DNA of 64,000 nt from a virus, in the IMG/VR virus record IMGVR_UViG_3300023179_000056, positions 1-64,000 of that record; one strand, given 5' to 3'. Shown in pieces: positions 18,433 to 20,137 of this stretch. The position numbers and the translations under genes are program-made. The notes under the pieces were generated by a model. It was given only the letters and a program-made list of their open reading frames with translations, did not search any database and was not told the origin of the DNA. The stretch's first letter is position 1. Each line of letters starts with the position of its first letter.

Positions 18433-18467
18433 TAAAACGGAAACTCTCATTTGTTAGTATAAATAAA

Positions 18468-18484: not shown

Positions 18485-19243
18485 ATGTTTATTCAAAACA
18501 AGTACAAAAAATGGTATGATGCTATTATTAAAAAAGCACAATCAAGATTATTAACATCCACATATTCAGAAAATCATCACATCCTACCACGTAGTCTAAG
18601 TGGTAGTGACCTAATAGAAAATATAGTCACACTCTCTGCTAGAGAACATTTTATTTGTCATGTGTTATTGACCAAATTCACTACAGGTGCACACAGACAT
18701 AAAATGTTATATGCTGCTAACATGATGTCACAAGTATCAAGAGATTATCAAGAGCGTTTTATACCAAATTCAAGACTTTATGAAATGATCAAAAAACAAT
18801 TTGGTCAGATGCATTCAAAAAGATTAACTGGACGTAAACTTACCGAAGATCACAAAGCAAAGATTTCAGCAGCCGGGCGTGGCAGAGTAAGTTCTCAAGA
18901 AACCATCGAGAAGCGGCGTACATCGTGTACAGGTAAAAAACGCACACCCGAACAAAAAGAAAGAATGCAGAAAGCACAGCTTAATCGTAAAGAAAAAACA
19001 CCAGAAGAAAAAGAGGCTATAGCTTTTAAATTATCTCAAGCACTAAAAGGTAAATCCACTGGTGCAAAGTCAGACACACATAAAGAGATGTTATCTAAGT
19101 CATTGGCAGGTAGAAATAAAGGTATTCCTAAGTCAGAAGAAACTAAACAAAAAATGCGTAAACCAAAATCAGAAGCACACAAGAAAGCAATTTCACAAGC
19201 ACGTATAGCAAAATATAAAGCATTACGTGAGTCATCTGTTTAG
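18485..19243 (+). CDS. HNH homing endonuclease with NUMOD3-like repeats
   Basis: ENHHILPRSLSGSD..ENIVTLSAREHFICH; several KSEETKQKM / SEAHKKAIS repeats; paralogue of 8530..9282. Confidence 0.85.
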   Translation: MFIQNKYKKWYDAIIKKAQSRLLTSTYSENHHILPRSLSGSDLIENIVTLSAREHFICHVLLTKFTTGAHRHKMLYAANMMSQVSRDYQERFIPNSRLYEMIKKQFGQMHSKRLTGRKLTEDHKAKISAAGRGRVSSQETIEKRRTSCTGKKRTPEQKERMQKAQLNRKEKTPEEKEAIAFKLSQALKGKSTGAKSDTHKEMLSKSLAGRNKGIPKSEETKQKMRKPKSEAHKKAISQARIAKYKALRESSV

Positions 19244-19696
19244 AGACTTGCTACGCAAGTCTATTGATTCGCTATCGCTCATCAATCTTATTTTGATCTA
19301 AAGAGCGAAGCAAAAAGTCTTCATGTAGATTGTTTTAGTCAGACGGAACCGTTTTGCACGGTTCCGTCTTTTGTCCTCATGTGAGTTGTCACAGCCAAGA
19401 CATTGGAAATAGGTGTTTTTACCGTGTTGCTAATGGGCTCTGATCTTTCCCAACCTACATCGACTCGCTGACAACAGCGTCTTAGACCTCGTTCCTAGTG
19501 TCTAAGTTTTTATAGCACGGTTTTTGGTATGCTAACATTCATACTATATCAATGCGTCGGGCGTATGGTTCTACCCGCACACTCACTTCCGATTTTTCAG
19601 GATAGTCAGATCTACTGACGGGAGTGCATCAATATGTCACGTGTCCGGTTATTCCCCGGTTTTTCCACAGCGGTATTACAAACTGGCCCGCCAACC
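19244..19696 (-). ncRNA. Candidate structured ncRNA or origin-like element (unassigned)
   Basis: ORF-free 450 nt with many inverted repeats, including a perfect 12-bp stem at 19341-19369; strand inferred from A-rich linkers. Confidence 0.45.
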
Positions 19697-20137
19697 TTAA
19701 GTGTTAGATTGAATTTTGCCTTTGATATGAGAACCATTGATCCGACAATTTATAATGCCATTATAATAGTCATCGGATTCTAAAACTTTTCTCAATATTT
19801 GTTCTTTAAGCTCAATGTAAGATGTTGCTGCCTTGCTGTCACAGTAGTGTAGTATTTCTCTTGTGAAATTTTCTTTGCCCAAGCTGTTGATGTCTGCATG
19901 AAGATTGGGGCTGCTACCCCAATAGTCTCGCCAGTCTGAATCAACCTTGCTGCGTATTCGTTTTTTCTTTTTGATGCCGTTTTTCTGCTTAATTACTTTG
20001 TAAGTGGTTTTTGAGAACTTTGCCAGTTTTTTGCCTATGTATTTGCGTCCATTGAGATTATTTGTGATCAAGTAAACAAATCCTACACATGAGTCGGGCA
20101 ATGTCTCTACTGGGGTGTTTTGATATAGCCATGTCAT
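19697..20137 (-). CDS. GIY-YIG endonuclease II-like (DenA-like) protein
   Basis: GFVYLITN..NGRKYIGKK, SDWRDYWGSS, FTREIL, E..EQ, YYN. Confidence 0.8.
   Translation of the reverse strand: MTWLYQNTPVETLPDSCVGFVYLITNNLNGRKYIGKKLAKFSKTTYKVIKQKNGIKKKKRIRSKVDSDWRDYWGSSPNLHADINSLGKENFTREILHYCDSKAATSYIELKEQILRKVLESDDYYNGIINCRINGSHIKGKIQSNT

What the first reader, a model, noticed from the sequence alone, without database searches (positions are those of the whole stretch)
19290..19696. ORF-free, densely base-paired ~400-nt element after endonuclease II: candidate large ncRNA
This is the only long non-coding gap in a tightly packed window. Stems seen: a perfect 12-bp stem 19341-52/19358-69, and a long-range bulged stem 19421-32/19513-21 enclosing tggg/ccca (19434-52), cgctg/cagcg (19466-79) and cttagac/gtctaag (19481-506). 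A possible pseudoknot pairs taggt 19410-14 with accta 19453-57. Further hairpins: gtatg/catac (19527-44), cggg/cccg (~19558-77), gtcag/ctgac (19605-19) and ccgg/ccgg (~19645-59). Linkers are A-rich on the minus strand, co-oriented with the GIY-YIG gene whose stop it abuts. I could not match it to tmRNA, RNase P or intron cores. Inference: a nuclease-associated RNA or a structured replication primer RNA.
Basis: partly seen in the sequence, partly recalled or inferred. Interest (0 to 1): 0.72.

Follow-up and report, generated by a model that had tools for sequence, protein, structure and literature searches.

The report
Twin-box structured RNA of jumbo phages
The gene-free gap encodes a real, knotted non-coding RNA of about 465 bases. 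Hundreds of uncultured T4-like giant lake phages carry it, it is an uncatalogued sibling of the orphan Polynucleobacter-1 motif, and its job and any link to the neighbouring nuclease are not shown.

Summary

- **What it is.** Window 19244-19708, minus strand, is a structured RNA gene.
- **Folding.** z = -5.2 against shuffles.
- **Covariation.** In 68 distinct relatives, 95.9% of 87 modelled pairs hold and 47 pairs change on both sides. This includes two pseudoknots.
- **Strand and coding.** G-U outnumbers A-C 412 to 80, which fixes the strand. There is no codon periodicity.
- **Distribution.** 119 or more IMG/VR contigs carry it, with one copy per ~330-kb genome. I found none in 50,697 GenBank phages and none in the prokaryote genomes scanned.
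- **Rfam.** Rfam 15 gives no match for this clade. Close homologues of the same GIY-YIG gene elsewhere are followed by Polynucleobacter-1 (RF01718) RNAs. These share the 3' module: two near-identical boxes that change in step, a hairpin, UGAC and a tail.
- **Nuclease link.** The RNA also occurs without the nuclease, or upstream of it, and then has its own late-type promoter. It is therefore not a shown partner or guide.
- **Twin boxes.** One 5' strand can pair with either box, which suggests a two-state or two-end design.

Function is unknown. This scan has met the same family many times on other DNA.

The parts
19244..19708 (-). Whole structured RNA gene: core 19319-19708 and 3' tail 19244-19318
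   Evidence: Sharp conservation boundaries in 74 relatives. Full length is 81-91% identical in related contigs. Covariation.
19701..19707 (-). Invariant 5' word CUAACAC, followed by AAGGUU. It marks the start of the conserved core and overlaps the last codons of the GIY-YIG ORF.
   Evidence: Invariant in all 68 aligned sequences whichever ORF precedes it.
19717..19721 (-). AGGCA leader motif about 10 nt before the core. In nuclease-less loci it is repeated 3-4 times after a TAAATA late-type promoter.
   Evidence: TAAATA also sits about 20 nt before late baseplate genes of this window.
19669..19692 (-). P1 hairpin (19692-88 / 19673-69) with a conserved 14-nt loop
   Evidence: helix 1: 100% paired, 3 of 5 pairs covary.
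19664..19668 (-). 5' strand GUGGA of the closing helix P2. It pairs with box 2 and is equally complementary to box 1.
   Evidence: Across clades the dinucleotide changes in a compensatory way: GU/AC, CU/AG, CC/GG (read by eye).
19546..19659 (-). 5' domain: P3 (19659-56/19648-45), P4 (19635-26/19555-46), P5 (19625-22/19584-81), P6 (19619-15/19609-05), P7 (19602-00/19590-88), P8 (19576-73/19562-59)
   Evidence: helices 3-8: 98.9-100% paired, 17 of 29 pairs covary. The P5-P8 subdomain is deleted in L113 and P8 in L095/L181.
19527..19544 (-). P9 hairpin GUAUG/CAUAC inside the invariant 22-mer UAUAGUAUGAAUGUUAGCAUAC
   Evidence: Never varies. The 18-mer was used to fetch 119+ viral contigs.
19409..19521 (-). 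Central double-pseudoknot domain: P10 (19521-13 / 19432-21, bulged), P11 (19506-00/19487-81), P12 (19479-75/19470-66), P13 (19461-59/19444-42, in the loop of P15), P14 (19458-54/19413-09), P15 (19451-49/19437-35)
   Evidence: helices 10-17: P13 has 3 of 3 pairs covarying, P14 is 100% paired, P11 has 7 of 7 covarying. P10 extension.
19375..19386 (-). Box 1 (ACUCACAUGAGG). Its 3' end pairs with GUCUU 19401-19397 (P16).
   Evidence: P16 is only 77.6% paired.
19341..19369 (-). P17, an 11-bp hairpin between the boxes, followed by conserved UGAC (19336-19339)
   Evidence: Across clades the stem has three or more different complementary sequences.
19319..19330 (-). Box 2 (AUCUACAUGAAG). It is the 3' strand of P2, and its 7-letter word ACAUGAA is identical to that of box 1.
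   Evidence: at least 12 different words, always the same in both boxes.
19244..19318 (-). 3' tail: tentative H-type pseudoknot (S1 19308-03/19280-75, S2 19286-81/19268-63) and terminal hairpin 19262-55/19251-44. The tail abuts the HNH stop codon.
   Evidence: S2 and the terminal hairpin covary. S1 is read from the sequence only. The tail is shared with RF01718-bearing RNAs.
19697..20137 (-). 146-aa stand-alone GIY-YIG nuclease gene, directly upstream on the same strand
   Evidence: PF19835, E 1.5e-31. PHROG 447. 596+ close relatives in IMG/VR.
18485..19243 (+). HNH/NUMOD3 homing-endonuclease gene on the other side, convergent. This insertion is absent from the relatives fetched.
   Evidence: TATAAATA lies 20 nt before its start.

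Best explanation
**Shown.** Window 19244-19708 (minus strand) is a gene for a large, stable, pseudoknotted non-coding RNA. It belongs to a widespread family of uncultured T4-like jumbo phages and occurs once per genome. It is a sibling of the Rfam motif Polynucleobacter-1: the 3' module and the position behind the same nuclease gene are shared, while the 5' domain is too diverged for the Rfam model.

**Inferred.**
- It is made either by read-through from the GIY-YIG gene or, where that gene is missing, from its own late-type promoter.
- It acts by itself, most likely as a protein-binding or regulatory RNA, and not as a guide for the nuclease.
- The nuclease gene, and in this window an HNH gene on the other side, are neighbours of the kind seen with free-standing homing endonucleases that settle beside conserved RNA genes.
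- The strand GUGGA can close the molecule with either of two near-identical 3' boxes. I therefore read the twin boxes as the two alternative partners of one helix, giving a two-state fold or two alternative 3' ends. The second half of each box is read by a partner that is still unknown.
For: - **Fold.** z = -5.22.
- **Covariation.** 95.9% of cells paired against 87.2% in shuffles. 47 of 87 pairs change on both sides against 28.8 in shuffles (0/500). Slid controls give 32-38%.
- **Strand and coding.** G-U 412 against A-C 80, and no codon periodicity.
- **Spread.** 119+ viral contigs.
- **Copy number.** One copy in each of four 150-330-kb records.
- **Rfam link.** RF01718 scores 85-114 bits directly after GIY-YIG homologues in L012, L024 and L026. 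Those RNAs have the same boxes, hairpin, UGAC and tail. nhmmer matches the 3' module at E 3e-8 to 6e-5.
- **Module model.** Model R1 of the module scores 72 bits once in G000 and once in G005.
- **Independence from the nuclease.** The RNA occurs without the nuclease or upstream of it, with TAAATA-N4-9-ACAGGCA upstream in 16 loci.
- **Box pairing.** GUGG pairs with box 1 in 67-68 of 68 sequences and with box 2 in 65-68 of 68, through the same parallel changes.
Against: - There are no expression data, so the promoter, the ends and the stability are all inferred.
- From the nuclease side the link is very tight: about 68 of about 72 usable homologue loci have the twin-box RNA. It even survives a change of gene order, so a functional partnership is not excluded.
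- No pairing partner for the second half of the boxes was found in cis or in the available 92 kb of the genome. The toggle therefore explains only the first half of the boxes.
- The alternative helix GUGAGU/box 1 has uncompensated C-A cells.
Confidence: 0.55

Rival explanations
1. The RNA is a working partner of the GIY-YIG nuclease: a guide, activator, inhibitor or antitoxin-like RNA. The pair moves as one cassette.
For: About 94% of usable loci with a close GIY-YIG homologue carry the twin-box RNA downstream. Adjacency is kept when the order flips, with the nuclease downstream in L082, L087, L106, L136, L155, L158 and L179. The protein is a bare catalytic domain with no DNA-binding domain. 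Weinberg 2010 already noted that Polynucleobacter-1 follows one gene family (PMC2864571).
Against: About a fifth of clade-A loci with enough flank have no GIY-YIG gene nearby. GIY-YIG homologues at 36-51% identity in Melnitz and cyanophages have no such RNA. The RNA has no variable guide-like end. The box words differ between lineages, but I found no complementary target.
Confidence: 0.17
2. The two boxes are two equivalent processing sites, either self-cleavage or cuts by an RNase. The cuts set alternative 3' ends and release the ~56-nt P17 hairpin RNA, much as repeats delimit units in type III antitoxin or CRISPR-like transcripts.
For: The two boxes are identical over 7 or more letters in at least 12 word variants and flank one conserved hairpin at 47-58 nt spacing. 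The centre of the box reads R-N-A-U in nearly all variants. From my own knowledge, this resembles the loose RNase E preference.
Against: No known ribozyme family matches. There is only one unit, not an array. Box 2 is clearly base-paired in P2. A host RNase would not force the boxes to change in step.
Confidence: 0.12
3. It is an origin transcript that primes DNA replication through an R-loop, as at the T4 origins. The boxes or hairpins would work at the DNA level.
For: It lies at the end of the gp47-gp46 recombination operon. It has A-rich linkers and stable mini-hairpins in the tail (and note e1-6007068). Repeated boxes about five helical turns apart recall iterons.
Against: Compensatory changes with strong G-U asymmetry show selection on an RNA fold, not on DNA. 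Two pseudoknots and invariant loops are far more than a primer needs. The promoter in free-standing loci looks late-type, whereas T4 origin transcripts come from early or middle promoters (my own knowledge). Box spacing varies from 47 to 58 nt.
Confidence: 0.08
4. It is only a cis-acting 3' end structure: a terminator, stabiliser or insulator between convergent operons.
For: It lies between convergent genes in the window and in most relatives. The terminal hairpin abuts the stop codon of the convergent gene.
Against: In one clade all neighbours run the same way and the RNA has its own promoter-like element. 390 nt with invariant single-stranded words is far beyond what termination needs. Only P17 looks terminator-like, and its U-run, on the opposite strand, is not conserved.
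Confidence: 0.06

Closest known systems
Polynucleobacter-1 RNA motif (Rfam RF01718; Weinberg et al. 2010, PMC2864571)
   Same: It sits directly after close homologues (68-75% identical) of the same small GIY-YIG gene. It has the same 3' module of twin boxes, hairpin, UGAC and tail. Several 5' words are similar, such as GGAA-hairpin-GAC, CACUC and CUAUCCU...GGA (read by eye). It comes from freshwater or estuary samples and its function is unknown.
   Different: The Rfam model covers only 141 nt of the 5' part. It does not score this window, eight other clade-A loci or four clade-A genomes even at E <= 1-10. The 5' and central domains here are organised differently: extra P6 and P8 and a double pseudoknot. 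The twin-box 3' half is not in Rfam or in the paper.
GOLLD, ROOL, OLE and raiA: large 'ornate' RNAs of bacteria and phages with unknown function
   Same: Large size, many helices and pseudoknots, invariant loops, carried by phages, no known job.
   Different: No Rfam match to any of them. No tRNA neighbours. The twin boxes have no counterpart in those RNAs as far as I know.
T4 SegB-type arrangement: a free-standing GIY-YIG homing endonuclease lodged in an RNA (tRNA) gene cluster
   Same: A GIY-YIG gene abuts a conserved RNA gene, its presence and side vary between relatives, and a second (HNH) endonuclease gene flanks the RNA in this window.
   Different: The protein here has no C-terminal DNA-binding domain (146 aa). 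It is far more constant next to the RNA than a sporadic homing gene usually is. Homing was not tested.
OMEGA systems (IscB/TnpB with omega or HEARO RNA)
   Same: A small nuclease gene next to a large structured RNA on the same strand.
   Different: The nuclease fold is different: GIY-YIG, not RuvC/HNH. There is no HEARO match, no variable guide segment and no transposon ends, and the RNA occurs without the nuclease.

Membership tests
Polynucleobacter-1 (RF01718) | Scores at or above the Rfam gathering threshold (37 bits) with the family covariance model | tested here: not met
   No hit at E <= 10 in the window or its genome. None in eight other clade-A loci or in records G001-G005.
Polynucleobacter-1 (RF01718) | Lies downstream of one particular small gene family (GOS11034 / PSSM2_218-like in Weinberg 2010) | tested here: met
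   RF01718 hits in L012, L024 and L026 start 12-50 nt after homologues of the window's GIY-YIG gene. The window RNA holds the same position. Identity of that gene family with GOS11034 itself was not checked.
Polynucleobacter-1 (RF01718) | Shared descent of the whole transcript, taken here as a common 3' module | tested here: met
   nhmmer E 3e-8 to 6e-5 between the window's 3' part and such loci. A joint alignment and model R1 score 72 bits in both G000 and G005.
OMEGA / guide RNA of a nuclease | Obligate pairing with the nuclease gene, and a lineage-specific guide segment at one end | tested here: not met
   The RNA is found without an adjacent GIY-YIG gene. Both ends are conserved words. No complementary targets were found. 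No HEARO match.
GOLLD / ROOL / OLE / raiA | Match to the curated covariance models | tested here: not met
tmRNA, RNase P RNA, group I/II introns | ARAGORN or Rfam model match; for introns, conserved flanking exons | tested here: not met
   The flanks are unrelated between loci.
T4-type origin primer transcript | Early or middle promoter, downstream DNA-unwinding element, persistent R-loop | not testable with these tools
   The only finding is that free-standing copies have a late-type TAAATA element.
Free-standing GIY-YIG homing endonuclease (Seg type) | GIY-YIG catalytic domain plus a C-terminal DNA-binding domain; sporadic presence between otherwise collinear genomes | tested here: inconclusive
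   The domain is present (PF19835) but the protein is only 146 aa with no second domain. Presence and side vary, yet about 94% of homologue loci keep the RNA.

The most novel reading that the evidence does not exclude
The twin-box RNA is an active RNA machine, not a passive scaffold. It could be a switch or ribozyme whose closing helix jumps between the two boxes, or which is cut at both to release the P17 hairpin RNA. It could work together with the bare GIY-YIG domain, which would be the first RNA-dependent GIY-YIG nuclease system.
Probability: 0.12. Interest if true: 0.88.

Novelty: new variant of a known kind. Interest (0 to 1): 0.6.

Why it matters
Large RNAs with conserved pseudoknots and invariant loops are rare, and the known ones tend to be ribozymes or the cores of RNA-protein machines. 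This family is common in giant lake phages, yet Rfam records only a 141-nt fragment of one sister clade. It has never been studied experimentally: the only paper found in the library is the 2010 motif survey.

The twin boxes change in step across at least 12 variants. That gives a sharp, testable handle on how the RNA works. The near-constant bare GIY-YIG neighbour raises the question of an RNA-nuclease partnership, which is open but can be settled.

Tried and rejected
**RNA families and similarity**
- Rfam at gathering and at E <= 10 on the window, a 1.3-kb stretch and a 426-nt stretch gave only microRNA noise.
- ARAGORN found nothing.
- blastn of clades A, B and C against 50,697 GenBank phages found no match.
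- A 23-nt 5' motif scanned over prokaryote genomes gave seven chance hits, none confirmed by nhmmer.

**Coding**
- A 63-aa antisense ORF appears in 52 relatives. I rejected it: there is no such ORF in the window, no codon periodicity, and stop-free frames range from 43 to 127 aa.

**Cultured relatives**
- The syntenic 836-nt gap of E. coli phage PBECO4 shows no nhmmer similarity and no hit with model R1. Melnitz and MED4-213 also give no hit.

**Partners for the box word**
- No partner in cis.
- No complementary copy and no enrichment in the 92-kb genome piece.
- No copy near the ends of a complete relative.

**Motifs and structure tests**
- K-turn or C/D-box readings of the boxes were rejected because the GA and UGA letters are not conserved.
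- The helix GUGAGU/box 1 lacks compensation.
- One search was a mis-nested structure string and should be ignored.

Full report
**Setting**

The window is part of a 91,885-base IMG/VR virus record, estimated 26% complete. Its baseplate hub is about 30% identical to those of jumbo phages such as PA5oct, Atu_ph07 and PBECO4.

Its neighbours at this locus are T4-like:
- gp47-like and gp46-like genes, radical-SAM genes and an SDR-like gene, all on the minus strand;
- then a 146-aa GIY-YIG gene (19697-20137; Pfam SegE_GIY-YIG, E 1.5e-31);
- then the gap;
- then a convergent HNH/NUMOD3 homing-endonuclease gene (18485-19243) and the baseplate hub.

- The gap has no frame longer than 54 codons.
- It folds far better than shuffles: z = -5.22 for the minus strand and -3.75 for the plus strand.
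- Rfam and ARAGORN find nothing.

**Conservation**

- A search with the GIY-YIG protein returned 596+ relatives in IMG/VR. Ten of the 80 kept loci had the whole element at 81-91% identity, directly downstream on the same strand.
- Conservation starts sharply at CUAACAC (19707) whichever ORF precedes it. The core ends at box 2 (19319). The tail down to 19244 is more variable but recognisably shared.
- There is one copy in each of four records of 150-330 kb.
- There is no blastn match in 50,697 GenBank phages and no true match in the prokaryote genome collection.

**Structure**

I used a MAFFT alignment of 68 distinct sequences and a hand-built model of 87 pairs in 17 named helices (the counting tool splits them into 19).
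- 95.9% of cells pair, against 87.2% in shuffles.
- 47 pairs change on both sides, against 28.8 in shuffles (0/500).
- The covariation score is 0.278 against 0.123.
- Sliding one strand by 1-3 columns drops pairing to 32-38%.

Two pseudoknots are supported:
- P13, where three nucleotides before P14 pair into the loop of P15, and all three pairs covary;
- the crossing of P10 with P14.

P10 extends by five pairs that occur as several different complementary sequences.

G-U cells outnumber A-C cells 412 to 80. The RNA is therefore read from the minus strand, the strand of the GIY-YIG gene. Variation shows no three-base rhythm.

**Twin boxes**

Near the 3' end are two boxes about 56 nt apart:
- ACUC-ACAUGAA-G (19386-19375)
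- AUCU-ACAUGAA-G (19330-19319)

They flank the 11-bp hairpin P17 and a conserved UGAC. Across 136 distinct family members, the 7-letter word takes at least 12 forms, among them ACAUGAA, AGAUAAU, GGAUAAU, AGAUGAU, ACAUAAA, ACAGAAA and GCAUAAU. It is the same in both boxes each time.

The first part of box 2 is the 3' strand of the closing helix P2 (GUGGA/UCUAC). Across clades, its dinucleotide changes together with the 5' strand: GU/AC, CU/AG, CC/GG (read by eye). The same 5' strand is complementary to box 1 in 67-68 of 68 sequences.

This is the simplest reason for the first halves to stay alike: one strand, two alternative partners.

The second half of the word has no consistent partner:
- not in the RNA;
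- not in the available genome;
- not at the ends of a complete relative.

**Relation to the known motif**

- RF01718 does not score this window, its genome, eight other clade-A loci or four clade-A records.
- Among 20 loci that hold close homologues of the GIY-YIG gene but lack my clade, three have RF01718 hits of 85-114 bits starting 12-50 nt after the gene.
- Their transcripts continue into the same twin boxes, hairpin, UGAC and tail.
- nhmmer links the window's 3' part to such loci at E 3e-8 to 6e-5.
- A covariance model of the module built from all clades scores 72 bits once in G000 and once in G005.
- Weinberg et al. wrote that the motif mostly follows one gene family with a possible cyanophage homologue, and that its 3' half is not always detected.

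The window RNA is therefore an uncatalogued sibling. The real family is a 330-470-nt RNA, of which Rfam holds a fragment of one clade.

**The nuclease**

- **Seen from the nuclease.** About 68 of about 72 homologue loci with enough flank carry the twin-box RNA downstream.
- **Seen from the RNA (clade A).** Most loci have the gene upstream, sometimes with an 88-aa zinc-ribbon-like ORF in between. One clade, in a different gene context, has the nuclease downstream or not at all.
- **Promoter.** In that clade, a TAAATA element followed after 4-9 nt by ACAGGCA lies about 70 nt before the core (16 loci). TAAATA also precedes late baseplate genes in this window. This suggests an independent late transcript.
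- **Distant homologues.** GIY-YIG homologues at 36-51% identity are common in cultured T4-like phages, where they are often mislabelled NAD synthetase. In Melnitz the gene sits next to nrdAB. No twin-box RNA was found there.
- **No structural relative.** The protein matches no GIY-YIG structure among solved structures at E <= 1. 'Endonuclease II' is therefore only a guess.

**Verdict**

The finding is a real RNA gene. Its class is known only as an orphan motif, and its mechanism is open.

I commit to a self-standing late RNA with a two-partner closing helix, and I keep the nuclease partnership as the main rival. The family has been met repeatedly by this scan on other DNA. What I add here:
- the formal pair counts;
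- the direct positional and 3'-module link to RF01718;
- the late-type promoter of free-standing copies;
- the shared-partner reading of the boxes;
- the negative tests on PBECO4, Melnitz and MED4-213.

Noticed in passing
window 18485-19243 (+), with TATAAATA at 18458-18465: An HNH/NUMOD3 homing-endonuclease gene (PHROG 655, E 3e-39) sits between the RNA's terminal hairpin and the gp51/hub genes. It appears in no fetched relative's gene layout. The RNA gene is thus flanked by two different endonuclease genes.
   Followed up: partly
L099:2375-2644 and 43 other loci, between the GIY-YIG gene and the RNA: An 88-89-aa ORF ends inside the RNA's first conserved word. Its tail reads like a zinc ribbon (H..GK.IC.TC..KF..W.PK). 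It has no Pfam or PHROG family, is absent from the window, and could be an RNA-binding partner.
   Followed up: no
L207:8038-8873 (E. coli phage PBECO4, NC_027364.1 304727-305562): An unannotated 836-nt gap lies at the syntenic spot between hub/gp51 and gp46. It has an extended -10-like TGCTATAAT and a terminator-like hairpin about 440 nt later. It shows no similarity to the twin-box RNA, so it may be a different ncRNA.
   Followed up: partly
L113:778-1271, L095:1277-1770, L181:482-975: Natural deletion variants exist. L113 lacks the whole P5-P8 subdomain (about 48 nt), and L095 and L181 lack P8. That part is therefore peripheral.
   Followed up: no
GenBank phage records under hits H32-H65: Homologues of this GIY-YIG protein are annotated 'NAD synthetase' in many cyanophage and rhizobiophage genomes (PHROG 447). 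Pfam sees a SegE-type GIY-YIG domain, so the label looks like a propagated error.
   Followed up: partly
L031:3425-3560, L009, L006 (clade C RNAs): The word AAGGCAA recurs three times in single-stranded stretches of these RNAs. It recurs 3-4 times in the leaders of free-standing clade-A copies. This may be a protein-binding repeat.
   Followed up: no
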